Shown here in pieces: positions 687-64,000 of a stretch of 64,000 nt of DNA. Each line of letters opens with the position of its first letter. Within the stretch, counting starts at the first letter, position 1. Position numbers and translations under genes: made by a program. This DNA is from Flectonema sp. DT1601 (lineage: Eukaryota), in contig OZ025804.1 in NCBI GenBank assembly GCA_964019425.1, positions 434,001 to 498,000 on the forward strand, read 5' to 3'. Under the pieces are notes generated by a model. The model was not told the origin of the DNA. It was given only the letters and a program-made list of their open reading frames with translations, and did no database searches.

Positions 687-788
687 CTAAACCTGATCAG
701 GGCAGCTGGCAACGTTGTTCATAGCGTCATCATTCCCCGCTGATTCCTTGCCCTTGCAACAGAAACAGCAGACAACCAAAACAATCGT
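687..788 (-). pseudogene. 3'-terminal fragment of a third DOMON-membrane-protein paralog (TM end + cytoplasmic tail only)
   Basis: Translates to ...VLVVCCFCCKGKESAGNDDAMNNVASCPDQV*, homologous to the C-terminus of 1102..4149; the flanking 460-690 duplicates the 3' UTR at 880-1100. Confidence 0.75.
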
Positions 789-1101
789 AAACCAACTTAA
801 ACTGATAAAAGAAAAGCAGGTTCACGAACTGCCAGCATTATTTTTAGTGCACTTGTTAAACACGTTAAAAAGAGAGGGAAATAGAGAGGAAATTGGAAAT
901 AAATAATTGTATATGGATGAAAAGAATATTTTGCAATATCCTTTACATTATGGTGACAAAGTCACAGTAAAGACCATCAACATTACTAACAGCATGTGCT
1001 GCAATTGATTTTTTCTTTGCTGTCGACTTCGAAATACACAAAAACAAGTAATAAAAAGAAACACCTTTTTATTTAAATAATAAGTTGAAAAAAATAATAG
1101 A

Positions 1102-4100: not shown

Positions 4101-4149
4101 TAGAAACTCCCAACATTGCGGCCAGTGCAGTAAGTCTGAGTAACTTCAT
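1102..4149 (-). CDS. Type I membrane protein with five DOMON-like domains (1 unique + 4 near-identical repeats) and Pro/Thr linkers
   Basis: 1015-aa ORF; signal peptide; repeated HW...GW/YxAVGF/W...M...H pattern typical of DOMON; C-terminal GAIAGIVIG TM helix followed by CFCC. Confidence 0.8.
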   Translation of the reverse strand: MKLLRLTALAAMLGVSSAVCGTASTDSNYVCMITGAGINVHWKTDTAGNYYEMMVDAPQTGANGYAAVGWNPTSPTGNRMIGSTILMGGTADLNAVKMYTPANTNGGNILATEATIPGTITQTAITSSNNRITLKFRRTGVSTGNLLTIFAFGGTGTLSNHGGSGRAAQTIDLADGVAPTSNCMASTLVQTGTTNYQCMKSLGNGVFIHWNIVTSGSAAVAATSTNVNGWFAVGFPTTPGSMSPAFSLATNSASSAGIYHITSNSAAGITSNPGNVPFSAPTTEVANGLRILKFNTLVLRANVDVNYAFHSSDIGFPVNIHTTRGSGTVDFADPTPAPVPAPTPPPTPSPYPAPTPPPTPSPYPAPTPAVSPASTPTPTLASNCMASTLVHTGTTNYQCMKSLGNGVFIHWNIVTSGSAAVAATSTNVNGWFAVGFPTTPGSMSPAFSLATNSVSSAGIYHITSNSAAGITSNPANTPFTAPTTEVANGLRILRFNTLVLRANVAVNYAFHSSEIGFPVNIHTTRGSGTVDFADPTPTPVPAPTPPPTPSPYPAPTPPPTPSPYPAPTPAVSPVSTPTPTLASNCMASTLVQTGTTNYQCMKSLGNGVFIHWNIVTSGSAAVAATSTNVNGWFAVGFPTTPGSMSPAFSLATNSASSAGIYHLTSNSAAGITSNPANAPFTAPTTEVANGLRILRFNTLVLRANVAVNYAFHSSEIGFPVNIHTTRGSGTVDFADPTPAPVPAPTPPPTPSPYPAPTPPPTPSPNPAFAPPVSPASTPALICMASTLVQTGTTNYQCMKSLANGVFMHWNMATSGSAAVAVTSTNVNGWFAVGFPTTPGSMSPAFSLVTNSVSSAGIYHITSNSAAGITSNPANAPFSAPTTEVANGLRILRFNALLLTSDMAVNYASHSSEIGFPVNIHTTRGSGNVDFADPTPTPVPVATAPVKPIITATTDPVVVTVNDDGLSGGAIAGIVIGSLAFAVIVILVVYCFCCKGKESADEGNAMDIVASSPEKV

Positions 4150-4854
4150 GATTAGCAGGTGGCAATAAACTGTGAAAAAAATATTTTAACAATCCGAGTG
4201 ACTACAAACTGATAGTTCCTTAGAATTACGACAACAGGAATGTTTCATGTAAATTATTTATTGTTTCCGTTTTAAGAATCGAAACATAAAATCAAATGAT
4301 CCGTCGTATGAACATCTTAAATGAAGGGAAGTGGAAATAGACCTACACCCTTAGAGTATATATCCTTTTAAAGACGTTAGTACTGACGACAGTTCAAACA
4401 CGCAAAGGACCAGCTGCTTTTGTCTTCAGTGCCAAGTGCAGAGAGAGACTCAAACAAGATCCATCGGTTGAAATCAGTAAGTAACTGTCGCTAGCAAAAA
4501 CACTAAAAAAAGAATTGGCTTTATCTTAAACAAAAGTTTGTCGGTGCACGAATCCGTAAACCGATTTAAATTGATAAAGGAAAAGCAGGTTTAACGTTCT
4601 TTTTCGTGCAGTTGTTAAACGCAAAAAAAGAGAGGAAATAGAGAGGAAATACGACATAAATAATTGTATATGGATGAAAAGAATATTTTGCAATATCCTT
4701 TACATTATGGTGACAAAGTTACAGTAAAGACCATCAACATTACTAACAGCATGTGCTGCAATTGATTTTTTCTTTGCTGTCGACTTCGAAATACACAAAA
4801 AGTAGTAAAAAGAAACACCTTCTTTTTGAATAATAAGTTGAAAGAAATAATAAA

Positions 4855-6732
4855 CTAAACCTTATTAGGATTGCTGGCAACGATATCCATAGCGTTACCT
4901 TCATCAGCTGATTCCTTGCCCTTGCAACAGAAACAGTAGACAACCAAAATAACGATAACTGCAAACGCCAAAGAACCGATAACGATTCCAGCAATAGCTC
5001 CACCAGATAAACCATCATCGTTGACAGTCACTACTACTGGGTCCGTGGTCGCTGCAGTTCCTGGAGTAACAGGAGTTGTTGCAACTGTAGCTGGAGTTGA
5101 GGTAGTTGCAGGGACACGAGTAGGGGTGGGATTCACGAAATCAACAGTTCCCGATCCTCTGGTGGTGTGAATGTTCACAGGAAATCCAATCTCTGACGAG
5201 TGGAATGCGTAGTTGACAGCCACGTTCGCCCTAAGCAACAAAGCGTTGAATCTCAAAATACGAAGACCGTTGGCCACTTCAGTCGTAGGGGCAGAAAACG
5301 GGGTATTAGCTGGATCGCTCGTGATACCCGCTGCTGAGTTGGAAGTGATGTGGTAAATACCCGCAGAACTAACACTGTTCGTTGCCAAGGAAAAGGCAGG
5401 CGACATGCTTCCCGGGGTCGTAGGGAACCCAACAGCAAACCAACCGTTGACGTTCGTACTAGTCGCAGCAACCGCAGCTGATCCACTCGTCACTATGTTC
5501 CAGTGAATAAAAACTCCATTCCCCAAAGACTTCATGCATTGATAATTAGTGGTACCCGTTTGAACGAGAGTCGATGCCATGCAATTCGATGCAAGGGTAG
5601 GAGTACGCGTAGAAGCAGGGGAAACAGCAGGGGTAGGAGCCGGGTTAGGAGAAGGCGTTGGAGGTGGGGTAGGAGTAGGCGTAGAAGCAGGGGTTACAGG
5701 AGAGGTAGGAGCAGGGACAGGAGTAGGGGTGGGATTCACGAAATCAACAGTTCCCGATCCTCTGGTGGTGTGAATGTTCACAGGAAATCCAATCTCTGAC
5801 GAGTGGAATGCGTAGTTGACGTCCACATTTGCCCTAAGCAACAAAGCGTTGAATCTTAAAATACGAAGACCGTTGGCCACTTCAGTCGTAGGGGCAGTAA
5901 ACGGGGTATTAGCTGGATCGCTCGTGATACCCGCTGCTGAGTTGGAAGTGATGTGGTAAATACCCGCAGAACTAGCACTGTTCGTTGCCAAGGAAAAGGC
6001 AGGCGACATGCTTCCCGGGGTCGTAGGGAATCCAACAGCAAACCAACCGTTGACGTTCGTATTAGTCGCAGCAACCGCAGCTGATCCACTCGTCACTATG
6101 TTCCAGTGAATAAAAACTCCATTCCCCAAAGACTTCATGCATTGATAATTAGTGGTACCCGTTTGAACGAGAGTCGATGCCATGCAATTCGATGTAGGAG
6201 CAACTCCATCAGCCAAGTCGATAGTTTGGGCAGCCCTTCCGGAACCTCCGTGATTAGATAAAGTTCCAGTACCACCAAAAGCGAAGATAGTCAACAAGTT
6301 GCCCGTGCTGACACCAGTCCTTCGGAACTTCAGAGTGATGCGATTGTTAGACGACGTAATCGCTGTTTGCGTAATGGTCCCTGGGATGGTTGCTTCAGTA
6401 GCGAGGATGTTGCCTCCGTTGGTGTTTGCCGGCGTGTACATCTTCACGGCGTTGAGATCAGCGGTTCCTCCCATCAAAATGGTGGAACCAATCATCCTGT
6501 TGCCTGTAGGACTAGTTGGGTTCCACCCAACAGCAGCATATCCATTAGCACCAGTCTGTGGAGCATCAACCATCATTTCGTAGTAGTTCCCAGCCGTATC
6601 AGTCTTCCAGTGAACGTTGATACCAGCACCTGTAATCATGCACACGTAGTTGCTGTCAGTAGATGCAGTACCGCAAACAGCACTAGAAACTCCCAACATT
6701 GCGGCCAGTGCAGTAAGTCTGAGTAACTTCAT
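4855..6732 (-). CDS. Paralogous type I membrane protein with three DOMON-like domains (1+2)
   Basis: 625-aa ORF, N- and C-termini almost identical to 1102..4149, two fewer internal repeats. Confidence 0.8.
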   Translation of the reverse strand: MKLLRLTALAAMLGVSSAVCGTASTDSNYVCMITGAGINVHWKTDTAGNYYEMMVDAPQTGANGYAAVGWNPTSPTGNRMIGSTILMGGTADLNAVKMYTPANTNGGNILATEATIPGTITQTAITSSNNRITLKFRRTGVSTGNLLTIFAFGGTGTLSNHGGSGRAAQTIDLADGVAPTSNCMASTLVQTGTTNYQCMKSLGNGVFIHWNIVTSGSAAVAATNTNVNGWFAVGFPTTPGSMSPAFSLATNSASSAGIYHITSNSAAGITSDPANTPFTAPTTEVANGLRILRFNALLLRANVDVNYAFHSSEIGFPVNIHTTRGSGTVDFVNPTPTPVPAPTSPVTPASTPTPTPPPTPSPNPAPTPAVSPASTRTPTLASNCMASTLVQTGTTNYQCMKSLGNGVFIHWNIVTSGSAAVAATSTNVNGWFAVGFPTTPGSMSPAFSLATNSVSSAGIYHITSNSAAGITSDPANTPFSAPTTEVANGLRILRFNALLLRANVAVNYAFHSSEIGFPVNIHTTRGSGTVDFVNPTPTRVPATTSTPATVATTPVTPGTAATTDPVVVTVNDDGLSGGAIAGIVIGSLAFAVIVILVVYCFCCKGKESADEGNAMDIVASNPNKV

Positions 6733-7571
6733 GATTAGCAGGTGGCAATAAACTGTGAAAAAAAATATTTTAATAATCCGAGTGACTACAAACTGATAGT
6801 TCCTTAGAATTACGACAACAGGAATGTTTCATCTAAATTATTTATTGTTTCCGTTTTAAGAATCGAAACATAAAATCAAATGATCCGTCGTATGAATATC
6901 TTAAATGAAGGGAAGTGGAAATAGACCTACACCCTTAGAGTATATATCCTTTTAAAGACGTTAGTACTGACGACAGTCCAAACACGCAAAGGACCAGCTG
7001 CTTTTGTAGTCACCTACCCGTTAAGCAATCAATTCCTGTTAGAATAGAAGGAGAAGAAGTACTGCTTGCTGCATCCTCATCAATGTAAATTTAAGGGTTT
7101 TTTTTTAAAACAAGAAAAAAACGTATTTTAATTTTTTAAAGTGTAATTATAGCTATCTTAGTGTAACAAACACCATTTTTCAATCTTCGATAAGTCGAGA
7201 GTCAAGTCAAGTTTTAGTCCAAACGAGTTGCTGTTTTCTGTGAGCAGGTGCCAGTCGAAAAATTTTGATCCCTTTAGAGTATCATCACAAGAAGCTGAGT
7301 ACAGCAAACCGCAAACTAGTATTACCCAGCTGGTGCTGTGGCTAGCATTCCCTGAATGGCTGCTTTCTGACCCGCAGATATGCTTTTTTTTTTTTTTTTT
7401 TTTTTTTAAATTGGTTTTAGAAATCTAAAACTCTCTCTCGGAGGTGAAAAACTTATTTACAAAAAAAAAAAAAAAAAAAGGAATCGGCAATCTTCACTTT
7501 TTACTTACTCACACTTTTATTTTGGTTGTGCGCAACCGAGGCGAAATCCTAATAAAGGAATAAGGAAAAGG

Positions 7572-27440: not shown

Positions 27441-27604
27441 TTTTTTTTTTTTTGAGGGAGGTGAGAGGTAGGTATGGCAGGAGGGTAAACCCTCGGAACC
27501 AGCGATCCTTATGTTACATGAGTGTGCGCTAAAAAGATAAACTGCATCACAAGTTTTGGGCCGGTTTTCTAGGTCCTACTATATCTGTCGCCGAAGCGAA
27601 GAAG
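27441..27604 (-). mobile_element. Poly(A)-tailed ~150-nt structured retroelement 3' end / SINE-like sequence, copy 1
   Basis: T13 then sequence homologous to 52753-52900, including 27 identical nt (27487-27513 = 52784-52810). Confidence 0.7.
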
Positions 27605-27878
27605 AGAAAAATGAAAAAACAATATTTGTGGTTGTTTGTGTACAGGGATTGCTTAATAACATGACTTTTAGGTAAAAAATTGTAATGCGTGTAAAAATCG
27701 TGTCTTTTTTTTTCTCTGCTTTACAATTCTTGAAAGAAGAAAAATAAAGTGGAAAGACAAGGAGGGATGTGACTAAATAAAGGTTTTTGCTAAAATGAAA
27801 ACATTTCTTTAAAGAAAGTTTAATTATAATAAGTTTTCTTTTTTATTTATTTATTATAATAAGAAAAGTTTTTTTTCA

Positions 27879-30284: not shown

Positions 30285-33076
<2,792 letters not shown>

Positions 33077-52717: not shown

Positions 52718-52757
<40 letters not shown>

Positions 52758-52905
52758 ATAGAGAGGCAGGTAAGTGGGAGAGCAAACCCTCGGAACCAGC
52801 GATCCTTATGATGTATGAATGCGTGCTAAAAATATAAACCACATCAACAGTCTTAAGCTGGTTTTACAGGTCCCACGATTACCCGTCGCCATGGCGAAGA
52901 AAAGA
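52718..52905 (-). mobile_element. Poly(A)-tailed ~150-nt structured retroelement 3' end / SINE-like sequence, copy 2
   Basis: T35 then homolog of 27454-27604. Confidence 0.7.
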
Positions 52906-52953
52906 TAAGTAAATTATAACTCATGATGGCTCACAAGGTCACGTTTTGTTTTG

Positions 52954-52986
<33 letters not shown>

Positions 52987-53071
52987 CCCCATTTCTTTTT
53001 AACCCCCGAGTAGTATAGTAAGCTCGTTCACAGTGTTCCCTGGGCACGCATTGGTTCTTTTCTTTTGCTCA

Positions 53072-53074
<3 letters not shown>

Positions 53075-53102
<28 letters not shown>

Positions 53103-56100
53103 CCTTTCACTTTTTTTCACATGTTCCTTCTTCCTAGTCGTCGTCTTCTTCGTTACCTGAGCATGACCGTGTTAGGCTCCCTGTTCCTACTCTCCTCTTG
53201 TTTCCAAACACTTGCTTCCGCAGCCTACCTCTATTACTCCGCCGTCTCACCAGCTCTCTCGCAAAGTTCCCTAATGTCTTCGAACCCGACGACGACGCGT
53301 CTGTACTACTCAGATACAGAAGGTCCCGGTCAGCTCCAGCCGGTCCCTTCCGCGCCTTGTCATGGGCTCTCCTTCTCTTCGTCTTCGTCTTTTTCGCCTC
53401 CTTGGCGAGTTTGGCTTTCAGCGCGGCCAGATCACAGCATTGGTCGAAGTCGCATTTGCTACAGTTTACCATCAACGTACCCTTCAGTCTCTTCCTGCGG
53501 CATCTGTTGCACCACCCATTACTAGCCAAGGGTCTCCTCCTAAAGTTCCTCGGGAGCCATCTGTCTCCACACAGACACTTTCCCAGCTCAGGTGGATCTT
53601 CCGACGGTGCCGAGCATGTTGAGGTGTCATCATCGCCCGAATTCGTCACATCTGTGTCCATGCATGTCATTTCGGAGTCTGATGTCTCCGACGACACAGC
53701 TCGCTGCAGCCGCATGCCGTCCCCTGCGTGATCCTTCGCCGTCTGTTCATCCAACACGGTTCGAGGGGAACTCCCTTCCTCCAGCAGCACCGGTGTTGCA
53801 TCATCGCTCCCAGTCTTGGTTGCAAGCTTCGAGTCTTCCAGCAGATTGTTTTCCTGTTGGGCGCTTTCTGACTCTTGTGGCTCGGTTCCTTCGGCTGGCT
53901 TCTTTACTACATTAACCTCCTCCTCCTGCCGCCCCCTCTCAGCACGTGCCTCCGCCGTCGCTGTTCCCTTCTCAAATTCTGCCTGCAGGAGCTCATAGTC
54001 AGGCAGCACAGGTATCGCCTCTCCGTCAGCGAGTCGGGTCACGGTCTCTTGCTTCGAATCTTCGTGCACTTTGATTTCCTGTTGTGTGCTCTCCGATTCT
54101 TGTTGCTCGATCCCACCGGCCGACGCTGTCTCCTCCGCGTTCGACTCCGTCGGCGGTTTGTCCCGTCCCGGTTGCGAGTCAGCCCCTGTTGGTGTCTCTG
54201 CCTGTTCGGGCCCTGTGCGATGTTCGCAGTCCGGTGTCACACGTCCGCTACCCGGCTTGGGGTCCTCCTGCAGTCTGTTTTGCTGTTGGGCATTGTCCGA
54301 CCCTTGTTGCCTGGTTTCCTTGGCCTCCGCTAGGGGTGGCCCATCTGATGCAATGTGCGATGAAGGAGCTCCAGCTGGGCCGTCCATCGAGTCCCTCCGC
54401 GGGTCACTCGACTTTGTCTTCTTCAGGTCTGATGGCGAGCGTCCTCCCAATCTCCGCTTGGTCGGCCCCTGTGTTATCGCCAGTGGGCGTGTCCTTACCG
54501 CCTCCGCTACCCGGCCTCGCCGGTCGCCTAACGCGGGTCGTGGGATCATCTCTACCATGGGGAAAGACACCATTGGCTTCCTCTCTGGGATTCCTTCGGG
54601 GACTCCGTAGCACCACTCGTACGCGCTATGCCTCACCTCTCTCGGTAGATCGGCGATCTTCAGGGAGATCCCCGCCCCACTCGCCTTCTGGACCATGCCC
54701 TCCACCTGTGTCCATTCCCCCTCTTCCCAGCCCCCCAAAGGCCCGTACGCCTGGACGTCGCCCAGCTTGCCGAGGACTCCACAGCTCGACAAGATATCAC
54801 GCACTGCCCTCATGAGGACGAGCATCGCTGGGTCCCCCGCTCCCTCCAAGCGGTTGAAACTCCATTGTTTCAGCATCGCACCACCTCCGCTCTCCAGCAA
54901 GTATGCTCTATTCATCCCCGCAAAAAAGAGGTACGCCACGGAGCACGGTCCCCGCAGCCTCTGGGACTGCGAGTGTTCCACGCGTTTTGCTACCCCTCCA
55001 GGAAACGAGTGTACCTGTAACGAGGCCTCGCTCCACGTCGCGTAGCATCCCGGTCGCCTCCCTCGCGACACCACGTACCACTCCATGCTCTGGGCCAGTC
55101 CAGATAGGGTTGCCTGCCGGTGTCCCGGGTCCGTTCCCCGTATGAACGCATCCGCCTCCACCATGGTGTTGAACCCTTTGAACACCGCACAGCGCAACCC
55201 CGTCACCAGCGGCTCCGCTTCACCCCAGCTGGTGACTACACCGGACCCATTCCTCCCATTCGCGATGGCGTAGAATTTGAATCTTCCCGCTGACTCGCGC
55301 ACTTTGCTCCCGGGGGCAGGCATCGTCAGCGCTGTCTCATTCGGTTCCAGGTCGCCTCCACTGTTGCTCCGCCGTGGGGCTTTCCGTCCCTTCAGCCTCC
55401 TCAGCAGCATGAAGTGAGGTGTCGATGCCTGTACCTCCCGCCACGAAGCCGTCCTCTCCACTCGGTCGTTCTGGTGTAGCCATCGGCCCTCCTCATCACA
55501 TGTGAAAGAGACGTAGTGGCCTACCCCAGATATCCCCTGGTGGACCACCACTGCGCCCAGCTCATACCATGTGGCACCGTCTCGCGGTTCCAGTAAGACT
55601 TTCTCACTTAGAGGAATTCGCGGGAGTGCTCCTGGTCGTCCCGCTACACACAGGATCAGTATCTCCGGCGCGGCCACCAGTTCCGTCCTCCTCGTTGAGT
55701 GCCCTCTCTCCCCGCATGAATCACATACATAGTCCGTCACCCTTACGGAGAGCCAGAGGTTCGACAACGCCTCCTGTATCTCCGCGGCTCGATGCACGAA
55801 CAGCCCACGCTCTTCCTGCGGCATCGATTTCTCGTTCAGGCAGCGGGCACACGACGTCGTCACAACCATCCCACAGGCGAACATCCTCGAGAACGGACTC
55901 GCGGCTCCTGCTCTTCTCTGGATGTCGTCCACTAGGTGCAGTAGCAACTCATGCGCGTCCTGCTGCCCTCTTCCGTCACCTCGCCGTGTTAACCCCGCCA
56001 TCACCCTGCCCAGAGGTACCATCTGGCTCACGGCTCGTCCACTTCCTTCCGCTATCCCTGCTAGGATGCAAATCGTGCACAGCCGGTCGCACACGTGCGG

Positions 56101-59100
56101 GAGCTCTCTGATCCGACCGAGTCCGAGGTCTACCCCCTTGATCAGACACTGCGAGACTACGTTCATGTAGCACGTGTCCCCCCGGTTCTCTAGCCCCTCG
56201 AGGCACGACTTCGCCATTGGGGTAGTCCTCTCGAAGTGTGATGGTGCTACTAATGTCTCCTTTTCCGATTGTCTCCTTCCCATCTCTTCCGCAGTGTTCT
56301 GGGCGGGCCCTAGCACCCCCATATCCGACCAGTCCTGGCACGGGTCCATCATCTCCACGTCCAGTGCCGCTCCTTCCAACTTCTCACTCGGCACGTCTTG
56401 GCACGAGTCCTCCATCTCCACATCCCGGCCCAGGTCTAAGGGACATGTGGAGACATCCATGCATCCATGCGGTGCCGTGCCCCTCTCCACTCCGGCTTGG
56501 TCAGCAGAGTCCAACCGCTCAGCCAACGTGCTGTAATCCGCCATCCTCAGCGGTGTCGGTTTGTTCCGGTCCGATGGTGGCGGGGGCGCTAACTGTGTCA
56601 GCATCTCCATCCGCAGGGGGTTTAACAGGGACCGGAAGCAGGCTTCTGTATCAGGCGTTCGTCGGCATCCATTTCCCGGCGACGTCACTGGTATCTTGCT
56701 CTCCTTTAAATGGAGATCCGTCCTCCTCCCAATCTCCTCTGTGCTCCTCCCGGTGCTCCTCCCGGTAGCCACTCCCCCCTCAGGCGACATAATTTGACAC
56801 ACCGCTGGCTTGTTCTCTTCCTCGTCCAGCTGTAACCCGGCGTCCTCCTCCGCGGCCAGGGACACCTCATCCCCCAGTGTTCCCTCACGCAGGGCAATGT
56901 GTATCGGTAGGGTCTCCATTCGATGTGTTTTCACGTCTATGGCCGTCACCGATCGGTTTATTTCCGCTGCTGGCGGCAGTTGCAGCTCCCCCGCCAAAGG
57001 TGGCGGTGCACCTGACTCCGCTAGCGTCTCCCCGGCTGTGCTCTCCATCGTCGGTGCCCGCGGGGTGTGCTCCACCATGCCTCCTTTCACCACCAGCTTA
57101 GCTTCCTCTGACTTCGGGGGAACCTTCGATGGCTGTAGGTCGGTCCCCACTTCTACCCCCTCCGTGATCCCCACCGTTGTCACGTTCACCACGGGTGGCG
57201 CTCCTCGGCTTGCGGCAAGTGTCCTCCCATCACCGTCTGTTTGCATCAGGGCGCCCTCCCCCGTGGTCGGGGACACGTCATCCCACGTCGTTCCCTCACG
57301 CAGGGCGAAGTGTATCGTCGGGGCCCCCATGTGGAGCGTTTTCACGTCCGTGGCCGCCTCCGATCGGTTCACTTCCACTGTTGGCGGCAGTTGCAGCTTC
57401 CCCGCCTCTGGTGTTGCACCCGACTCCACTAGCATCTCCCCGGCTGTGCTCTCCATCGTCGGTGCCTGCGAGGTGTGCTCCAACATGCCTCCATTCACCG
57501 ACAGCATGGCTTCCTCTGACTTCGGGGGAATCTTCGATGGCTGGAGGTCGGTTCTCACTTCTACCCCCTCCTTGATCTCCACCGTTGTCGCATCCGCCAC
57601 GGGTGGCGCTCCCCGGCTCGCAGCAGGTGTCCTCCCACCGTCTACTTGCATCAGGGCGCCCTCCCCTGTGGTCGGGGACACATCATCCCACGATATCCCC
57701 TCCCGCAAGGCAGCATAGACTGGCTGGGGCCCCACTTGGGGTGCCCTCGTGTCATTGGTCGACCTCGGTTGGTCCTCCCTCACAGCCACCGTCTGAGGTG
57801 TCGTTACCGTGTTTGTCCGCGGCCCCAGGGCCACATTCCCCAGCATGGGTGCATGCGTCTCCAAAGGTGTATCCTGTGGTCCCGTGGGCGCCCCTAGGGC
57901 TCCGGCGTGCGGTGCGCTCTCACTAATCCCTTTGCTCAGTGGCGTTGTTCCCGTATCCGATCGTGACTCTAGCCGCGTCCCTTGGGCCAAACTTACCACG
58001 GTGGGCGAATGCGGTGTGGGCTCCGTTTTGTCCCCACTCACCAGCACAACCCCCTCCTCCGCAACTCGTGGTTCAGTGGACGGCACTGGGGCTTCGACGC
58101 GCATTGTACCTTCTCCAATCTCCTTGCTCTGTGGGTGATGCGCCACCTGCACACGTCCTGGCGCCGCTGTAGTCTCCCTCTCTCGCGACAACACGCTTCC
58201 CGTTTGTGAACGTGACGACGGCGACTCCGGCTCGGTCACTTCTGGAGGGGGTGGCTCCACTCTCGTGTATACCCAGAACAAGGGGTCTAGCGAGTCCAAT
58301 CCAGCCTCCACCACTGGGGAATCATCGCTCACCCTCAACCACCGGTCCTCCTGGGTCCTCACCAAGGCCACGGCATGCTTCACCTCCGAACTGCCCTTGG
58401 TCCCTCCCACACACCCGGTGAGCACGTAGACCCGCAGCCCGGCCGCTGTATCGACTCTGACCTCGGCCGCCCGCTCCAGGCGCCCCGTCGAGAAGATCAC
58501 TGGTGCCGTGTTCAGCATCCTCCACTTCACCGTGTACAATCGCGAGGGGTTCCTGCACTTATCGCAGATGGTTTCCCGCTGGGTCTTTTCCAACGAGACT
58601 CCACCCCGCAAGACCTGTGCCGCCTCGGGCATCTCCTTCACCATCAGTACGGTGAAGTCCAGCACCATGCGCTTCAGGGTCGCTCCACAGTCGCAGGTGT
58701 AGACTCCCTCCAGCCGGCTGCTGAAGATCTCTCTCAGGCAGCTCTGCCACGCTGCGCAGGCATCCTCCAGCCTACCCAGGACCAAGGTCAGGTAATCCAG
58801 TGGCGACCCACCAGCCATGGAGAAGCGTTCCACTTCCCGCTTCACCGCTCCTTTCTGCATCTCCTGCGTGTGTCTCGCAGATTCCTTCAGCAACGGCCCC
58901 AGGTCTGTGCTCCTTCCCACCATCATCTCCCACAGCGAGCACACGAAGCATCCTGTCCTGCACAGGGCGTGGCCTGTCCTCTTCATCTCCAGGAATCCCA
59001 TCAGCGGCGTGGACCAGGCCAACGAGGCTACCGTCGCTCCGGCGTAACAGGTCCCACCACCGTTCGAGAAGCCGATCGGTTCCGAGAGGGCCCACCTGCA

Positions 59101-62100
59101 GTCTTGCTTCCCGCCGACTACATAAGAGAGTAGCCTCTCCCTCGGCGCGGCCTCCTCCACCCGCCCCGCGTCGGGAGAACTATCTAGCGGCTTCCGGACC
59201 TCACTCTCGGACACCTTCATTGCCTGTAGGGCCGCCTCCAGATCCGCAACTTCGCAGGCCTCCAGCCCTTCGGGTTGATCCGCCGCCCACAGGTCCCAGG
59301 ACAGTTCCGCCTCCACCTGCTCATGCTGCGTGATCAGCGTTAGTTCCCCGTCAGGTGCCGTTACGTCTCCCCTGTCCGCCACCGCCCTCGCCCACGAGAC
59401 CGCCAATATCGTCGATACTTCCCTTGTCACTCGACACCACGCTTCCCTCGGTGTCGCCGATCTCATGGCAATCGCCCTCATGAAAGCCGCAGCCGCCTGG
59501 TTTGTCGCACCCTCTCTGGTGAACACCAGCGGGACAAAATTCACACCCTGCTCGGTGCATTCCCTCCCGTACTTCGCAATCTTCTCGCGCTCCTTGACTT
59601 GGATCGCCTGTCGGGCATCCTTGTGCGACCCTCTGCTCACGGAGGTCACGGTGCTCACTTCGAGTACGGTTACGTCGTAGGCGGTCAGCCCGACGTTCCC
59701 ACCCGCCACTGTTCCATGCGCCGCCGTTGTGAGCAATAGATCCGCGGGTTTGGTTCCCCCCTTCAGTAGCTTTTTCGGTTCGGTCTCCACCGCGAAGCCC
59801 ACCTCTCTGGCCCTCCCAGCTAAATAGTCGCGGATCAGGTTGTGCCTTATTATCGGGCTCCCTCCTGTCCTGCACACACCCGCGTGCACACCATGCGCGT
59901 CCAGTTTCGTCCCGCATCTGCGGCACAGCTGCCCGCGCATCAACACCTCCATGCCGAGCATGCCTCTCAGGGCCAGCCTCAGACTCTTCGGGTCTACCTG
60001 GGTCCCCTCCTCAGACGCCTCTGCCAGCCACGCTCCTGCCCTTGGCATCGAGGCCGCTCTGAAGTGGGCCAATAGCGACTTGTCCGAGCCCTTTAACTGC
60101 ATCAGCTTCCCGCGCAGGGTCTTGTCAATCCTCGCCGAGAGCTCCCTCTGACTGATCGGCTTCTCCAAGCTGAGGTCACCCAAGTCTGGTATTGAGGCCT
60201 TGAGAGTTCGCTGGACTCTTCCCCACTCATCAGCGTCCGCCTTGTAGTGTGGGTCAAACTCTTCGCAGAGCAGCCGGGTCGCGGTCATCGATGCCGCTCT
60301 ACCCGCAGCAGCATGTCTCACCGTGCTCCGCAACCCCACTCCACCTCCCCTGATCGGCAGTTCTACCTGCATCAACTCCTCCGCTCCCATCCCAGGTCCC
60401 ACAAAGCTCTCTAGGGTATCACGGATCGCGACGTCAAACTCCTCCAATCCCGCTGCCATGTCGCCCAGCCGCATGGACCTCATTAGGTAAACCATCTTAC
60501 CGAACGAGTGACAGTACCTCAGCTGGGTGAGCGCCGCGTGCCTATCTGGCATCCCCGACAACCGCGAACTCACCCCTCGCAGCTTCCCCACATAATCTCG
60601 CAGGTACTTGCTGCAATAACCGCTACTTCCCACTGGCAGCTTGAGGATCGTGAAATTGCCGTCGGGCGCCGTTTCTACTTCCGCCAGTTTGCCCGTCGGC
60701 TTTGTGCAGCCCCCCAAGGGTATGAAGCAGCATTTGGCTACCTTCACCTTCAGTCCCAGCTGTGCCGCTTCCTCCACCAAGAAGTCAAACGAATGCTGCA
60801 GGACTTCCACCCTCCCCATCAGCACACCATCGTCCAGGTACCATAGGCTGTTGTCCAGTCCCCTATCCCGCAGCTTATTCAGCAGGCATCTGATCCCTAT
60901 CGCAAAGAGCAGCGGCCCTGCAGGGTCTCCCTGCTGCGCTCCTTCCCGCGATTTGATCAGTTCCTCGTTGAAGAAGAGATCCGTCTCCGTCTCGTAGCAC
61001 CACAGGGCCCACGGTAGCAGTTCCGGTAACGCAGCCGCCAGCTCCTTCAAGAACGCCAACCTTGAGATGCAGTTGAAGGCGTTCTCGAAGTCTATCGTGA
61101 GGATCGCCTTCCCGCGTCCCATGTTCCTCGCCGCGTACTCCTTCACGAGGGTGTACATGACCTCGACGCCGCAGGGCACCGCCACCCCCAGCTGTCCTCC
61201 CGGCCGCAGTAGCGATGGGATCTTCGGCCTCACCTGGTGCAGCAGTGTCTTCCATGTCCATCTCCTGAGGCTCTCTCCAACTGCGATGGGACGGTAACCC
61301 ACCGGTTCCTTCCTGAGCGCGACCAGCCTCGCCCCCGCAATCAGGGAGGCCGCTTCCTTCGGCACTCTCCCTCTCGCGAGCAGCTCCATCGAGGCGCACA
61401 GCAGCGGTAACAGACCCTTCTCGCCTGTATCTAGGGCCTGTTTCAGCAGCTCCACGCTCAAACCGGACGGTCCCGCACCTGTGTCCTTCGGAAACTCCCT
61501 CAGGCACGTCAAAGCCAGCTCGGGGTCGAAGGTCACCACTCCAGTCCTCACCCCCACGACATCTTGATTCGGGTGTAATGGTTCCGGATGGATCTTCTGC
61601 ATGGCTTGCAGTACTTCCGCCGAGTTTGGGGCCAGCCCGCTGGAGACTAGGCATGCATTCGCTTGCGAGTACCTCCCCCTTCTACTCATGGCGCTGCACC
61701 TCTCGTATCTCTCCTTCAATGAAAGTACCTTGCCCTTCCCTTTGATCGCCTTGGTTTCCATGGAGCTCCACAGCTCCGTGTACTCCCCACGCATCCACTG
61801 TTCTAGCCTTGCAGTCGTCCGCACACGGTTCGTGACCTCCTCCTCCCCGCTCTCCACTCCCCTTCCCTTCCTTTCCACACGTAAACCCAGACAGGCCTTC
61901 GGGAGCATGTGCAACAGTTTCCAGGCCCCTACATTGTTGTCGGAGACCACTCTCTGCAGCACCTCCCTCAGGGCCCTCGCCCAGAGCACTGTTAAGCGGT
62001 CGTCCACCCTCTTGGGGACTCTCACGGGTGAACTCCCTATCTCCGCCCACGAGGGCAGCGTCTCCGCTCCCGGTGTCTCAGGCCCTATCGTCGGCTCTTC

Positions 62101-64000
62101 CGAGAGGTGCTCCCCAGCCTTGTAGTCTCCCAGGGACGCCTTCCGACAGCGAGGGTGCGACCCCGTCTTACTCTTCGTGAGGCCTCCACAGAACGCACAG
62201 GGTCTCGCGTCCAGGGCCCTCAGCTCCGGCTCCGACAGGGGTCTATCTGAGAGCAGGTGTTGCCTGGTCAGGTGCGCCATCAGCCCCGCGATTGAGTCAT
62301 ACCCGCTGTGCTGCTGCGCCCTTGACCTCGAGCAATCGCTCCGTGGGCAGAAGAAGGGTCCGTTCCCCATCGTACCTGCCTTCGCTCCCGTTCCCAGCCC
62401 CATCCGTTTGGCTGCTTGGTCAGGGTCCTCATCCGCCGCCCCGGTGATGTGGACCGCCTCGGCCTCGCCTTCTACCTGTTCCAACGACTCGCGCGACGCC
62501 CCCACTACCGCTTCGTAGTGGCTCCCTCGTAGGTGCAGCCAGACCGGCACGGGGTGGTCTCGGCTCGCGGGCAAGAACTTGCGGTGTCTGTCCCCCTCCG
62601 TCACCACGATCACTGTGTGCAAGAGATTCGCGGCCACTTGCAGGGTGGTATTGTCTCCCCAGGCTTTCGTCCTTACGCCCTGTGCGAAACTCTCCTTCGA
62701 GCTCCCGTCCGTGAACCACCGGTCTCCCTCAGGGTCAACCAGCAAGGCGTCCGCCACGTGTCCCCGCAGTCCCTGCGTACCGACCCTCGGATTCCAGACC
62801 TTCTTCGCCGTGAGGATCGCCCTGAACTGGCAGTCTCCGTTCGGCCTCGTCCGTGAAACCGTCACCTCCGGCCACTTCGACTTCAGCCTCCCCATCGCGT
62901 CCCCGCCACCCTCCGCACGTCGCGCTTCCGCTCGGATCAGGTTGTCGCACAGTGGGTGCGGTTCCCCTCCACCTCTGGCGCACTTCTTGCAGGGTTTCAG
63001 GTCCACCGCCTCCCACTGTTTCTCCGAGAATCCTTGCCCGTGCACCCCGTACACATGCTTCCGGAGGCCCGTCTTTGACGTGAACCTCTCGTCACACGCC
63101 GGGCAGCTCATCCCGCCACCCTCCATCTCATGCGGGCGCTGTCTGCACCCTGACGGGACCCTCATGCGGACTTCCGGGGCTGCCGGGCGTGTACCTTTCT
63201 TCAGAGACATACTTCTCCGCAGGCGCTCCCATCGTTTCTCGGCCTTTCTGTTCCGGGGGGCCGCCATGGGCCTCTCCCACACCGTTCGCCCCAGATCCTC
63301 CCTCTCCTCCACCTCAACCCTTCGGATCTGGTTCTCGTCAGGGAGGTACCGCCGGCCTTCTCGCCTAGCAAGACACGAAGGTATCAACAAGGGGAAGTAC
63401 CTTTCCGAACGTAGGGGTTCCCACCTCCGGGTCATCGTCAGGAGCGCAGTCGCCTTCCCCGTCAGGTTCCGGAGGGACTCCCAGCACTCGTCCACCAACA
63501 TATCTTCCGCGTCCGAACCGTATTCTGTCCGGTCCACACTCGCCCGGATGTCGGTTGCGCGGATATCGTCGGTCACTCCCTCCGCCTTCCTTACCGAAGA
63601 AGTTAGGCCTGTGGCTCTAACAGGTAGAGGATACACGCATTCACACCCCCAGATGCCACCTGTTTGCATAATCGGGCCATCGTACGCCCGTCCATCAGTC
63701 GTATACATCGGAGATCGATTCTTGTACCCATCAGACACACACGCCGTCACGGCCGCAAGCGTTGGGTCAACGCATACCTGCCCGTGCCCCAGGCCTCTCG
63801 AGCAGTGTCCATTATCCTCATCTAACGTGACACTATCGTCAAACTCACAGACCATCGGTTGTGTCAGAATGGAGGCCCAATCGTAGCATGACCGGGAACT
63901 AAGACCAAAGAAGTCAAGAGCAGCGATATCAAAACAGTGAGACGGGCAACAATCATTAATCGTGGTGACACTTCCAGGACCTAGTAGGTCGGTGACTTCT
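53075..64000 (-). mobile_element. Giant GC-rich RLE-type (CRE-like) non-LTR retrotransposon; 5' end not defined in window
   Basis: Single 10.7-kb ORF, A-tract 31 nt after the stop, abrupt compositional shift to high GC. Confidence 0.88.
53134..63855 (-). CDS. 3573-aa polyprotein: C2H2 fingers, OTU protease, RT, CCHC + restriction-like endonuclease, two USP (peptidase C19)-like domains, two RNase H1 N-terminal (viroplasmin-like) domains, C-terminal Cys cluster
   Basis: CPAC..H..H; NGDC..WG..HY; GAGPSG, YRPIAVGE, DFENAFN, GAQQGDPAGPLLF, YLDDG; CRRC..H..C, RHN, PAD..D..EREKIAKY; GFSNGGGTCY..H..DD; GLENRGDTCYMN..QQDAHE..GHY..ND; FYAIANGR..SW..FKGF, WYVVSRGRRPGCYATW. Confidence 0.9.
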   Translation of the reverse strand: MVCEFDDSVTLDEDNGHCSRGLGHGQVCVDPTLAAVTACVSDGYKNRSPMYTTDGRAYDGPIMQTGGIWGCECVYPLPVRATGLTSSVRKAEGVTDDIRATDIRASVDRTEYGSDAEDMLVDECWESLRNLTGKATALLTMTRRWEPLRSERYFPLLIPSCLARREGRRYLPDENQIRRVEVEEREDLGRTVWERPMAAPRNRKAEKRWERLRRSMSLKKGTRPAAPEVRMRVPSGCRQRPHEMEGGGMSCPACDERFTSKTGLRKHVYGVHGQGFSEKQWEAVDLKPCKKCARGGGEPHPLCDNLIRAEARRAEGGGDAMGRLKSKWPEVTVSRTRPNGDCQFRAILTAKKVWNPRVGTQGLRGHVADALLVDPEGDRWFTDGSSKESFAQGVRTKAWGDNTTLQVAANLLHTVIVVTEGDRHRKFLPASRDHPVPVWLHLRGSHYEAVVGASRESLEQVEGEAEAVHITGAADEDPDQAAKRMGLGTGAKAGTMGNGPFFCPRSDCSRSRAQQHSGYDSIAGLMAHLTRQHLLSDRPLSEPELRALDARPCAFCGGLTKSKTGSHPRCRKASLGDYKAGEHLSEEPTIGPETPGAETLPSWAEIGSSPVRVPKRVDDRLTVLWARALREVLQRVVSDNNVGAWKLLHMLPKACLGLRVERKGRGVESGEEEVTNRVRTTARLEQWMRGEYTELWSSMETKAIKGKGKVLSLKERYERCSAMSRRGRYSQANACLVSSGLAPNSAEVLQAMQKIHPEPLHPNQDVVGVRTGVVTFDPELALTCLREFPKDTGAGPSGLSVELLKQALDTGEKGLLPLLCASMELLARGRVPKEAASLIAGARLVALRKEPVGYRPIAVGESLRRWTWKTLLHQVRPKIPSLLRPGGQLGVAVPCGVEVMYTLVKEYAARNMGRGKAILTIDFENAFNCISRLAFLKELAAALPELLPWALWCYETETDLFFNEELIKSREGAQQGDPAGPLLFAIGIRCLLNKLRDRGLDNSLWYLDDGVLMGRVEVLQHSFDFLVEEAAQLGLKVKVAKCCFIPLGGCTKPTGKLAEVETAPDGNFTILKLPVGSSGYCSKYLRDYVGKLRGVSSRLSGMPDRHAALTQLRYCHSFGKMVYLMRSMRLGDMAAGLEEFDVAIRDTLESFVGPGMGAEELMQVELPIRGGGVGLRSTVRHAAAGRAASMTATRLLCEEFDPHYKADADEWGRVQRTLKASIPDLGDLSLEKPISQRELSARIDKTLRGKLMQLKGSDKSLLAHFRAASMPRAGAWLAEASEEGTQVDPKSLRLALRGMLGMEVLMRGQLCRRCGTKLDAHGVHAGVCRTGGSPIIRHNLIRDYLAGRAREVGFAVETEPKKLLKGGTKPADLLLTTAAHGTVAGGNVGLTAYDVTVLEVSTVTSVSRGSHKDARQAIQVKEREKIAKYGRECTEQGVNFVPLVFTREGATNQAAAAFMRAIAMRSATPREAWCRVTREVSTILAVSWARAVADRGDVTAPDGELTLITQHEQVEAELSWDLWAADQPEGLEACEVADLEAALQAMKVSESEVRKPLDSSPDAGRVEEAAPRERLLSYVVGGKQDCRWALSEPIGFSNGGGTCYAGATVASLAWSTPLMGFLEMKRTGHALCRTGCFVCSLWEMMVGRSTDLGPLLKESARHTQEMQKGAVKREVERFSMAGGSPLDYLTLVLGRLEDACAAWQSCLREIFSSRLEGVYTCDCGATLKRMVLDFTVLMVKEMPEAAQVLRGGVSLEKTQRETICDKCRNPSRLYTVKWRMLNTAPVIFSTGRLERAAEVRVDTAAGLRVYVLTGCVGGTKGSSEVKHAVALVRTQEDRWLRVSDDSPVVEAGLDSLDPLFWVYTRVEPPPPEVTEPESPSSRSQTGSVLSRERETTAAPGRVQVAHHPQSKEIGEGTMRVEAPVPSTEPRVAEEGVVLVSGDKTEPTPHSPTVVSLAQGTRLESRSDTGTTPLSKGISESAPHAGALGAPTGPQDTPLETHAPMLGNVALGPRTNTVTTPQTVAVREDQPRSTNDTRAPQVGPQPVYAALREGISWDDVSPTTGEGALMQVDGGRTPAASRGAPPVADATTVEIKEGVEVRTDLQPSKIPPKSEEAMLSVNGGMLEHTSQAPTMESTAGEMLVESGATPEAGKLQLPPTVEVNRSEAATDVKTLHMGAPTIHFALREGTTWDDVSPTTGEGALMQTDGDGRTLAASRGAPPVVNVTTVGITEGVEVGTDLQPSKVPPKSEEAKLVVKGGMVEHTPRAPTMESTAGETLAESGAPPPLAGELQLPPAAEINRSVTAIDVKTHRMETLPIHIALREGTLGDEVSLAAEEDAGLQLDEEENKPAVCQIMSPEGGVATGRSTGRSTEEIGRRTDLHLKESKIPVTSPGNGCRRTPDTEACFRSLLNPLRMEMLTQLAPPPPSDRNKPTPLRMADYSTLAERLDSADQAGVERGTAPHGCMDVSTCPLDLGRDVEMEDSCQDVPSEKLEGAALDVEMMDPCQDWSDMGVLGPAQNTAEEMGRRQSEKETLVAPSHFERTTPMAKSCLEGLENRGDTCYMNVVSQCLIKGVDLGLGRIRELPHVCDRLCTICILAGIAEGSGRAVSQMVPLGRVMAGLTRRGDGRGQQDAHELLLHLVDDIQRRAGAASPFSRMFACGMVVTTSCARCLNEKSMPQEERGLFVHRAAEIQEALSNLWLSVRVTDYVCDSCGERGHSTRRTELVAAPEILILCVAGRPGALPRIPLSEKVLLEPRDGATWYELGAVVVHQGISGVGHYVSFTCDEEGRWLHQNDRVERTASWREVQASTPHFMLLRRLKGRKAPRRSNSGGDLEPNETALTMPAPGSKVRESAGRFKFYAIANGRNGSGVVTSWGEAEPLVTGLRCAVFKGFNTMVEADAFIRGTDPGHRQATLSGLAQSMEWYVVSRGRRPGCYATWSEASLQVHSFPGGVAKRVEHSQSQRLRGPCSVAYLFFAGMNRAYLLESGGGAMLKQWSFNRLEGAGDPAMLVLMRAVRDILSSCGVLGKLGDVQAYGPLGGWEEGEWTQVEGMVQKASGAGISLKIADLPREVRHSAYEWCYGVPEGIPERKPMVSFPMVEMIPRPALGDRRGRVAEAVRTRPLAITQGPTKRRLGGRSPSDLKKTKSSDPRRDSMDGPAGAPSSHIASDGPPLAEAKETRQQGSDNAQQQNRLQEDPKPGSGRVTPDCEHRTGPEQAETPTGADSQPGRDKPPTESNAEETASAGGIEQQESESTQQEIKVHEDSKQETVTRLADGEAIPVLPDYELLQAEFEKGTATAEARAERGRQEEEVNVVKKPAEGTEPQESESAQQENNLLEDSKLATKTGSDDATPVLLEEGSSPRTVLDEQTAKDHAGDGMRLQRAVSSETSDSEMTCMDTDVTNSGDDDTSTCSAPSEDPPELGKCLCGDRWLPRNFRRRPLASNGWCNRCRRKRLKGTLMVNCSKCDFDQCCDLAALKAKLAKEAKKTKTKRRRAHDKARKGPAGADRDLLYLSSTDASSSGSKTLGNFARELVRRRSNRGRLRKQVFGNKRRVGTGSLTRSCSGNEEDDD

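What the first reader, a model, noticed from the sequence alone, without database searches (positions are those of the whole stretch)
53134..63855. Giant CRE-like retrotransposon carrying three deubiquitinase-type protease domains (1 OTU + 2 USP) in one ORF
Seen: one uninterrupted 3573-aa ORF. An OTU motif set (~62850-62510) lies upstream of RT/RLE, and two separate USP-like domains lie downstream of the endonuclease (~59080-58300 and ~56200-55390). Each retains Cys-box and His/Asp-box residues. Known: RLE elements (CRE/SLACS/CZAR, R2, NeSL) normally end shortly after the endonuclease, and the accessory protease I know in them is N-terminal (Ulp1 in NeSL). Inference: ~2000 aa of cargo after the RLE, with two C19 proteases, is an architecture I do not recognise. 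It may process the polyprotein or counter ubiquitin-based host defence or chromatin silencing, as viral DUBs do.
Basis: partly seen in the sequence, partly recalled or inferred. Interest (0 to 1): 0.92.

Follow-up and report, generated by a model that had tools for sequence, protein, structure and literature searches.

The report
Giant retrotransposon carrying three deubiquitinase domains
A jumping gene in an unidentified eukaryote encodes one 3,573-residue protein that joins its copying enzymes to three conserved domains predicted to cut ubiquitin tags and to a predicted dead RNA:DNA-hybrid-binding enzyme, likely a built-in kit that protects the element from the host's tagging and destruction while it inserts.

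Summary
Confirmed and extended. The minus-strand ORF (53134-63855; frame still open at the window edge) reads zinc finger, OTU, zinc finger, RT, restriction-like endonuclease (RLE), USP-A, USP-B, two RNase H1 hybrid-binding domains, a catalytically dead RNase H fold and a Cys finger. A 28-nt poly(A) follows. USP-B is a clear C19 domain (Pfam E 2e-19). USP-A has no Pfam hit, but three other tests call it a USP; it keeps Cys/His/Asp and has lost the QQDAxE and GHY boxes. The cargo is not a one-off. A sister family (62% RT identity, 26 members, three full-length ORFs on different contigs) has the same order and all three catalytic sets. Domains are 33-62% identical while linkers score like shuffles. 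A 96%-identical second copy of this family exists. N-terminal Ulp1, Josephin and OTU domains in LINEs are published, as is a C19 on a DNA transposase. I found no USP, and no DUB after the RLE, in a LINE in print; Repbase was not searchable. CRE membership is untested. No activity was measured.

The parts
53134..63855 (-). Single 3573-aa ORF of the element (frame open to 63999; the 5' end of the element lies outside the window)
   Evidence: GC about 0.59-0.65 against about 0.34-0.51 in the rest of the window
63040..63108 (-). C2H2 zinc finger 1 (aa 250-272)
   Evidence: Pfam zf-C2H2_4 E 0.004, below cut-off; 37% identical in the sister family
62500..62868 (-). OTU cysteine protease domain (Cys342, WGDN box, His446)
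   Evidence: Pfam OTU 28 bits, above cut-off; sister E 8e-8; 44% identical
62140..62343 (-). Second Cys/His zinc-finger region (aa 505-572)
   Evidence: 58% identical in the sister family; read from the sequence, no Pfam finger hit
60256..61488 (-). Reverse transcriptase core (QGDP 975, YLDD 1006-1009)
   Evidence: RVT_1 E 8e-10; best PDB hits are R2 retrotransposon proteins
59356..59925 (-). CCHC knuckle and restriction-like endonuclease (RHN, E, KPAD, D)
   Evidence: motif regex against the published REL consensus; aligns to the R2 endonuclease region; 56% identical in sister
58255..59133 (-). USP-A: divergent C19/USP domain; Asn1598, Cys1603, His1827, Ser1843/Asp1844 kept; QQDAxE box replaced by GGSPL and GHY by KHA
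   Evidence: 44% identical in sister with the same changes
56221..58248 (-). Low-complexity linker (676 aa) with a 408-bp internal duplication at 56839-57712
   Evidence: TRF; similarity to the sister linker no better than shuffles (25 of 100 reach it)
55396..56202 (-). USP-B: canonical C19/USP domain (Asn2557, Cys2562, QQDAHE, His2780, Asn2796/Asp2797)
   Evidence: Pfam UCH E 2e-19; best USP match in the PDB is USP36 over its whole length, E 1.5e-9
55141..55284 (-). RNase H1 hybrid-binding domain 1 (Cauli_VI)
   Evidence: Pfam E 3e-21 for two stretches; PDB hits are RNase H1 N-terminal domains
54976..55083 (-). RNase H1 hybrid-binding domain 2
   Evidence: second Cauli_VI stretch; the pair is 52% identical in sister
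54595..54954 (-). RNase H-fold domain lacking the catalytic acidic residues (one copy here, two in the sister family)
   Evidence: AF2 pLDDT 67, b-b-b-a-b-a-b-a topology; VIA best Z 7.9, rmsd 3.6, 108 aligned to LC11-RNase H1; Foldseek hits mainly uS11 and Pelota; residues
53431..53598 (-). C-terminal Cys-rich finger followed by a basic tail
   Evidence: 41% identical in sister; only a weak C1_2 hit, E 0.1
53075..53102 (-). 28-nt poly(A) tail starting 31 nt after the stop codon

Best explanation
This is an intact, poly(A)-tailed RLE-type non-LTR retrotransposon whose single polyprotein likely carries its own counter-defence arm: deubiquitinase domains predicted to strip ubiquitin from the RT-RNA particle and from proteins at the insertion nick, and an RNase H1-derived module predicted to bind but not cut the RNA:cDNA hybrid. 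Shown: the domain order, the intact RT, RLE, OTU and USP catalytic motifs, the poly(A), further copies, and conservation of every domain across two families. Standard for RLE LINEs: the protein binds its own RNA, the RLE nicks DNA and the RT copies about 11 kb by target-primed reverse transcription. Inferred: (1) OTU and USP-B remove ubiquitin from the very long polyprotein and so delay its degradation; (2) the two hybrid-binding domains and the dead RNase H fold sit on the growing hybrid, shield it from host RNase H and hold the neighbouring USPs at the insertion site, where they reverse ubiquitin-based repair or chromatin signals; (3) USP-A, with its triad kept and two conserved boxes lost, has shifted to another substrate, such as a ubiquitin-like modifier or a specific protein.
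For: Architecture and motifs. Mobile family: the sister cluster has 26 members; the 15 listed lie on 12 distinct contig lengths; three are full length (3746, 4614, 4730 aa) and differ by 5-7 residues in their last 3400. Two overlapping members (P0002, P0008) share one contig length, so they appear to be separate copies. 10 of the 14 other listed members run to the same C-terminus and none stops after the RLE. P0050 is a 96%-identical degenerate copy of the window's own family on another contig. Selection: 10 of 10 domains are 33-62% identical between families (0 of 100 shuffles reach the score), while 4 of 4 linkers are at shuffle level (25-83 of 100). All catalytic Cys/His/Asp positions are kept in 4 of 4 full-length proteins. 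Ser at the third catalytic position is compatible with activity (USP16/30/45; PMC10867860). Ubiquitin-driven degradation of a LINE ORF2p is a known restriction (title and abstract start of PMC10716122). Josephin in Dualen was proposed to disrupt protein degradation (PMC8557442). The hybrid-binding domain binds RNA:DNA hybrids (10.1101/572842).
Against: No activity, substrate, expression or transposition was measured. USP-A could not be folded (pLDDT 38.9), and loss of the QQDAxE and GHY boxes could mean poor or no ubiquitin cleavage. The RNase H assignment rests on a pLDDT-67 model from 3 sequences with best Z 7.9, a level the tool says can reflect a common arrangement; Foldseek ranked uS11 and Pelota first, and ESM features gave only 0.77 to unnamed clusters with a minority Macro label. 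12 of 14 relatives with a readable RHN motif end within 198 aa of it (some are cut by contig ends), so this arm is not needed for RLE retrotransposition in general. The best USP relatives (USP36, a Ubp8-type chain) also fit a chromatin role. dN/dS was not possible because only proteins of the sister family were available.
Confidence: 0.5

Rival explanations
1. The USPs act in trans on chromatin, removing histone ubiquitin or related marks so that copies of the element stay transcribed; the hybrid-binding module would then target R-loops at transcribed copies.
For: USP-B's best full-length USP match in the PDB is USP36. USP-A's best profile hits are a Ubp8-type chain and USP36. Both domains share the Cys-x-Cys zinc motif after the Cys box with USP36/42/17-like proteins. 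That these enzymes act on H2B ubiquitin is recalled, not from a call. A basic C-terminal tail could be a nuclear signal (sequence).
Against: The similarity is remote (about 20-23% identity) and does not give a substrate. Removal of H2B ubiquitin often favours silencing (recalled). Fusion to the RT points to action in cis.
Confidence: 0.22
2. One or more of the proteases, most likely USP-A, cuts the 3,500-4,700-aa polyprotein into working units, as viral papain-like proteases do.
For: The domains are separated by long, unconserved, probably disordered linkers. USP-A keeps its triad but has lost two conserved USP boxes in both families, as expected of a change in specificity.
Against: No hydrophobic-x-GG motif lies at a shared position in the linkers behind the RLE; the shared ones fall inside folded domains, apart from one just before zinc finger 1. 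Linkers show no conserved site at all. Neither family has a 2A-like motif. Three proteases are more than processing needs.
Confidence: 0.18
3. The 3' half is passenger DNA: host genes caught by read-through and carried without benefit, or an assembly chimera.
For: Most relatives end soon after the RLE. The window's own family is seen in only two copies, no flanks of other copies could be read, and the window's ORF itself did not appear in the two RT searches.
Against: The same in-frame order occurs in two families 38% diverged in the RT, with domains conserved, linkers randomised and catalytic residues intact. There are three independent full-length sister ORFs. GC3 is high across RT and cargo (0.61-0.80) and unlike the host genes (0.31-0.52).
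Confidence: 0.05

Closest known systems
CRE-group RLE non-LTR retrotransposons (CRE1/2, SLACS, CZAR, Cnl1, MoTeR, FoTeR)
   Same: One ORF with N-terminal C2H2 fingers, RT and a CCHC-RHN-E-PxD-D endonuclease (PMC12857005, passages); poly(A) tail.
   Different: FoTeR ORFs are about 1,150-1,184 aa with the endonuclease at the C-terminal end. Here about 2,070 aa follow it and an OTU precedes the RT. Clade membership and target site were not testable.
Dualen/RandI LINEs
   Same: Multidomain LINE protein with a DUB-type cysteine protease (Josephin), RT, RLE and RNase H (PMC9977147 figure legend; PMC8557442; PMC4640811).
   Different: Dualen also has an APE endonuclease and an N-terminal Josephin. 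This element has no APE, uses OTU plus two C19 domains, and its RNase H fold lacks the acidic residues and lies far behind the RLE.
NeSL and Utopia-1_TSP (Ulp1-bearing RLE elements)
   Same: RLE LINE with an accessory ubiquitin-like protease (PMC4640811, passages).
   Different: One N-terminal Ulp1 there. Here three proteases of two other families, two of them after the endonuclease.
Symbiodinium necroappetens ORF2p with N-terminal OTU (bioRxiv 10.64898/2026.06.17.732966)
   Same: OTU in front of a LINE RT (passages).
   Different: No USP domains and no RNase H1-like module are described.
Ginger1 transposases (C-terminal OTU or Ulp1), Helentron OTU, Trichomonas vaginalis transposase XP_001314237.1 with peptidase C19
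   Same: Mobile-element enzymes fused to DUB domains, including one C19 case (PMC2836005; PMC6431247).
   Different: These are DNA transposons, each with one protease domain ('either OTU or Ulp1, but not both' in Ginger1).
Cellular USP36/USP42/USP17-like and Ubp8-type USPs; compact USPs of Nucleocytoviricota
   Same: Best matches of USP-A and USP-B; shared zinc motif after the Cys box.
   Different: Only about 20-23% identity. USP-A lacks the QQDAxE and GHY boxes. The donor could not be determined.
Eukaryotic RNase H1 (hybrid-binding domain plus catalytic domain)
   Same: Hybrid-binding domains followed by an RNase H fold.
   Different: No Asp in strand 1, at the end of strand 4 or in the last helix, so it is predicted to be inactive; the fold is duplicated in the sister family.

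Membership tests
RLE-type non-LTR retrotransposon | RT domain with intact YxDD | tested here: met
   RVT_1 39 bits, above cut-off; YLDD 1006-1009; best PDB hits are R2 proteins
RLE-type non-LTR retrotransposon | CCHC knuckle plus PD-(D/E)xK-type endonuclease after the RT | tested here: met
   C-x2-C-x9-H-x3-C-x8-RHN-x19-E-x9-KPAD-x21-D; three spacers differ from the published SLACS/CRE ranges
RLE-type non-LTR retrotransposon | 3' poly(A) or simple-repeat tail | tested here: met
   A28 at 53075-53102, 31 nt after the stop
RLE-type non-LTR retrotransposon | Dispersed near-identical copies, many anchored at the 3' end | tested here: met
   Sister cluster of 26 members, 15 listed; a second copy of the window's family. 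Frameshifted copies cannot be told from 5'-truncated ones without DNA.
RLE-type non-LTR retrotransposon | Target-site duplication or specific target sequence | not testable with these tools
   The 5' end is outside the window, no genome is held, and Rfam finds nothing credible at the 3' junction
CRE clade | RT groups with named CRE/SLACS/CZAR/Cnl1/MoTeR elements | not testable with these tools
   The tree holds only unclassified relatives, among them Cladocopium and Ephydatia proteins. The resemblance of the RT motifs to CRE is recalled.
CRE clade | ORF ends shortly after the endonuclease | tested here: not met
   2234 aa follow the RHN motif, against 198 or fewer in 12 of 14 relatives with a readable motif
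Dualen/RandI | APE and RLE together, N-terminal Josephin | tested here: not met
   No APE or Josephin hit in the 3573 aa; sequence upstream of the window was not seen, but the 4730-aa sister ORF also has none
OTU (C85-type) protease | Pfam OTU above cut-off with catalytic Cys and His | tested here: met
   28 bits against 23.3; Cys342, His446. A PDB sequence search found no OTU.
USP/C19 (USP-B) | Cys box, QQDAxE box, His box, Asn/Asp pair | tested here: met
USP/C19 (USP-A) | Profile similarity to USPs over the whole domain, with catalytic Asn, Cys, His and Asp | tested here: met
   Ser in the third position occurs in active USPs
USP/C19 (USP-A) | QQDAxE box and GHY His-box motif | tested here: not met
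   GGSPL and KHA/RHA in both families
USP/C19 (USP-A) | Predicted C19 three-dimensional fold | tested here: inconclusive
   Single-sequence model pLDDT 38.9; no fold search was run on it
OTU and USP deubiquitinases | Cleavage of ubiquitin conjugates | not testable with these tools
   Needs an assay
RNase H1 | Hybrid-binding domain followed by an RNase H fold | tested here: met
   fold support is moderate (best Z 7.9)
RNase H1 | D-E-D-D catalytic residues | tested here: not met
   Strand 1 VAYLFFAG, strand 4 VQAYGP, last helix HSAYEW; also absent in both sister copies

The most novel reading that the evidence does not exclude
A LINE has built a virus-like, cis-acting counter-defence arm: a catalytically dead RNase H1 mimic that occupies the RNA:cDNA intermediate and delivers two USP deubiquitinases to the insertion site, one of which (USP-A) has evolved a new specificity. 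This would be the first USP-bearing LINE and evidence that ubiquitin signalling and RNase H attack at the insertion intermediate restrict retrotransposons in a unicellular eukaryote.
Probability: 0.3. Interest if true: 0.86.

Novelty: new variant of a known kind. Interest (0 to 1): 0.72.

Why it matters
Mobile elements have repeatedly captured Ulp1, OTU and Josephin domains, and the papers I read only speculate on why. This family carries three such proteases from two families in one protein, under evident constraint, next to a hybrid-binding module. It offers small separable domains and clean catalytic mutants with which to ask directly whether ubiquitin restricts target-primed reverse transcription, and at which step. 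It also shows that an RLE protein tolerates more than 2,000 residues behind the endonuclease and copies an RNA of about 11 kb or more, which bears on R2-type gene-insertion tools. USP-A is a natural USP variant with an intact triad and altered recognition boxes.

Tried and rejected
No whole genome is held, so copy number, flanks and target sites could not be read. No sequencing run was listed. Single-sequence AlphaFold of USP-A failed, and the second fold job went to the RNase H-like domain. The representative search with USP-A gave 2 proteins, both tandem USP17/36/42-like arrays whose E-values are inflated by repeats. The USP-B search (154-492 aa only) gave 1 protein, P0050. No search of proteins longer than 6253 aa was made. 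Three scans of viral contigs (RT-RLE, USP-B, USP-A profile) found no relative. The metagenome scan gave 6 loci at 27-37% identity; L001 ends 198 aa after the RHN motif. For the domain after the hybrid-binding domains, Pfam, a PDB profile search and HHalign against the neighbouring LINE's RNase H (0.07%) gave nothing; a macrodomain reading (ESM 0.77) was rejected because no macrodomain is among the 50 VIA rows shown. Alignment A2 was misaligned by the duplicated domain and was discarded. The N-terminal 240 aa are not detectably homologous to the sister's N-terminus (97 and 108 of 500 shuffles reach the score). The C-terminal finger is only marginally like the finger of P0029 (33 of 1000 shuffles; sister 100 of 1000). 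No tRNA or Rfam family was found in the window; two weak matches at the 3' junction are chance. The host was not identified: eIF3a is nearer to mammalian than to yeast or trypanosome entries, which is not diagnostic. No complex prediction was run. Earlier notes by sequence, by place and by seven words returned nothing.
Full report
Observation. The minus strand holds one 3573-aa ORF at 53134-63855. The frame stays open for 48 more codons to the window edge, and the other two frames hold 105 and 200 stops. GC rises from about 0.4 in the rest of the window to about 0.6 over the ORF. A 28-nt poly(A) starts 31 nt after the stop. The left half of the window has long uninterrupted eukaryotic ORFs (eIF3a, an FHA kinase, DNA pol phi, DOMON proteins) on a 435-kb ENA contig. 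I infer an intron-poor unicellular eukaryote, which I could not identify.

Domains. Pfam finds a weak C2H2 finger, OTU (28 bits alone, cut-off 23.3), RVT_1, UCH at aa 2554-2813 (E 2e-19 alone) and two Cauli_VI stretches. The RT keeps QGDP and YLDD. It is followed by a CCHC knuckle and RHN-E-KPAD-D, in line with the REL consensus printed in PMC12857005 (passages) except for three spacer lengths. The best PDB relatives are R2 proteins. USP-B is canonical; its best USP match in the PDB is USP36 over the whole domain (E 1.5e-9), below one spurious repeat-protein hit.

USP-A needed more work. It has no Pfam hit and did not fold from a single sequence (pLDDT 38.9). ESM features place it with UCH clusters at 0.95, with 187 of 256 features shared and 10 of 10 best named hits agreeing. 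A two-sequence profile finds USPs in 6 of 7 PDB hits (E 0.003-0.03). HHalign gives 96% (E 2.5e-9) against a four-sequence USP profile, 63% against the two cellular USPs alone and 37% against USP-B; 5 of 5 column shuffles score under 0.2% against the cellular pair. The alignment shows Asn1598, Cys1603, His1827, Ser1843/Asp1844 and the zinc ligands kept. The QQDAxE box is replaced by GGSPL and GHY by KHA (RHA in the sister). Ser at the third position occurs in active USP16, USP30 and USP45, and several USPs rely on the following Asp (PMC10867860, passages). USP-A may therefore be active with altered recognition; this is inference.

The two Cauli_VI stretches match RNase H1 N-terminal domains in the PDB. 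The next 120 aa had no sequence hit but are 33% identical in the sister family, which has a second such domain. A three-sequence AlphaFold model (pLDDT 67, pTM 0.62) has RNase H topology. VIA ranks LC11-RNase H1 first (Z 7.9, rmsd 3.6, 108 aligned), then foamy virus RT (7.6) and a halophile RNase H1 (7.5); no chain reaches Z 8. Foldseek ranks uS11 and Pelota first; that these share the fold is recalled. The acidic catalytic residues are absent. Given its position behind two hybrid-binding domains, I read it as a dead RNase H1, with moderate confidence.

Is the cargo real? Searching the RT-RLE region among proteins of 1965-6253 aa gave 2 hits among 2205 candidates. P0002 (3746 aa) has the same order of domains. 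Its cluster has 26 members, of which 15 were listed, on 12 distinct contig lengths. Three are full length and differ by 5-7 residues in the last 3400. Ten of the 14 other listed members reach the same C-terminus, four are internal pieces, and none stops after the RLE. Frameshifts and 5' truncations cannot be told apart without DNA, and 11 members were not seen. P0002 and P0008 overlap and share one contig length, so they appear to be two copies in one genome. Whether this is the window's organism is unknown. Between the families, 10 of 10 domains are 33-62% identical with 0 of 100 shuffles reaching the score, while 4 of 4 linkers are at shuffle level. All OTU, RT, RLE, USP-A and USP-B motifs are present in 4 of 4 full-length proteins. 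P0050, 96% identical to aa 2416-2613 with two small deletions, is a second copy of the window's own family on a 663-kb contig. Misassembly and neutral capture are thus unlikely.

Relatives. The shorter-protein search gave 21 hits among 7990 candidates; none of these has a UCH hit. Of 24 non-family relatives, 14 have a readable RHN motif: 12 end within 198 aa of it (some cut by contig ends), and two run about 880 aa further. In an RT tree of 27 rows (4 of 6 loci left out as short or broken; midpoint root), the two families group at 100/100 and are sister to P0029 at 100/99, while P0003 lies in another supported group. This suggests, without a formal test, that DUB cargo behind the RLE arose more than once. 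No named CRE sequence was available, so 'CRE-like' remains a recalled resemblance.

Mechanism. Shown: anatomy, mobility and constraint. Standard for the class: target-primed reverse transcription by a cis-acting protein. Inferred, 0.5: the DUBs protect the very long RT particle from ubiquitin-dependent removal and reverse ubiquitin signals at the nick, held there by a hybrid-binding, non-cutting RNase H1 module that also shields the hybrid. Ubiquitin-driven degradation of L1 ORF2p is a published restriction (PMC10716122, title and abstract start only), and Josephin in Dualen was proposed to disrupt degradation (PMC8557442, one passage citing Kojima and Fujiwara 2005, which I did not read). Rivals: trans-acting chromatin DUB (0.22), polyprotein processing (0.18; no shared hydrophobic-x-GG site in the linkers behind the RLE) and passenger DNA (0.05).

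Comparison with print. Passages read: N-terminal Ulp1 in NeSL and Utopia-1_TSP (PMC4640811); N-terminal Josephin in Dualen and N-terminal OTU in a Symbiodinium ORF2p (bioRxiv 10.64898/2026.06.17.732966); Dualen domains (PMC9977147); C-terminal OTU or Ulp1 in Ginger1 and a C19 on a Trichomonas transposase (PMC2836005); OTU in Helentrons, with no giant RLE LINE among the passages shown from a review of giant transposons (PMC6431247); weak C-terminal Josephin homology in a Penelope-like element; dead RNase H tethers and hybrid-binding domains (PMC5603734, 10.1101/572842). A survey of papain-like proteases does not mention transposons (PMC10318531, term search only). Seven searches showed no LINE with a USP, with a DUB behind the RLE, or with a hybrid-binding domain plus dead RNase H. 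I saw only the top listings of the larger ones (20 of 31, 20 of 103, 20 of 16,691), read no supplements, and could not search Repbase or subscription journals, where such elements are often described. Three unchecked earlier notes of this scan report OTU domains in Penelope-like and DIRS-like elements; they fit recurrent capture but are not evidence.

Verdict. The feature is real and conserved: a new variant of a known kind. DUB capture by mobile elements is known. Two USP-fold domains plus an OTU and a pseudo-RNase H1 in one RLE LINE protein was not found in print. Interest 0.72.

Noticed in passing
window 30285-52708 (-): Head-to-tail array of about 3.4 copies of a second LINE (630-aa ORF1; 1305-aa APE-RT-RNase H ORF2), period about 6.46-6.48 kb, 99.8-100% identical. 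One copy has ORF2 split into 703 + 598 aa, and the last breaks off into (GAAA)160 at 30303-30942. Each unit ends in GAAA repeats, so it may insert into its own tail.
   Followed up: partly
window 52718-53074 (-): Between the giant element and the LINE array lie an 88-nt unique piece ending in A32 and a roughly 200-nt piece ending in A35. The latter is 78% like 27441-27610, which also ends in poly(A): a possible SINE family. No Rfam match.
   Followed up: partly
P0029 aa 885-1002; P0003 aa 1738-1891: Two other RLE elements with an OTU-like domain after the endonuclease, in different branches of the RT tree; P0003 has a long Lys/Glu-rich stretch before it.
   Followed up: partly
P0009 and P0011, first 1,100-1,300 aa: The sister family's ORF begins with about 460 aa of unassigned sequence and a variable-number 29-aa tandem repeat, giving ORFs of up to 4730 aa; not detectably related to the window's N-terminus.
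   Followed up: partly
window 117-7007 (-): Two tandem DOMON plus CEMIP_X-like genes (1015 and 625 aa) built from internal repeats of about 600 bp and Pro-rich spacers.
   Followed up: no
window 53134-63999 and 30285-52503: The window's retroelement ORFs are absent as exact sequences from the protein collection although host genes of the same contig are present, and the giant ORF was not returned by the two RT searches. A longer called ORF or masking would explain it.
   Followed up: no
P0027, P0028: Proteins made of 10 and 3 tandem USP17/36/42-like catalytic domains; these may be gene-calling fusions of tandem arrays.
   Followed up: no
P0030 aa 69, P0040 aa 231: 2A-like (D/G)(V/I)ExNPGP motifs in two RT relatives; none in the two giant families.
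   Followed up: no
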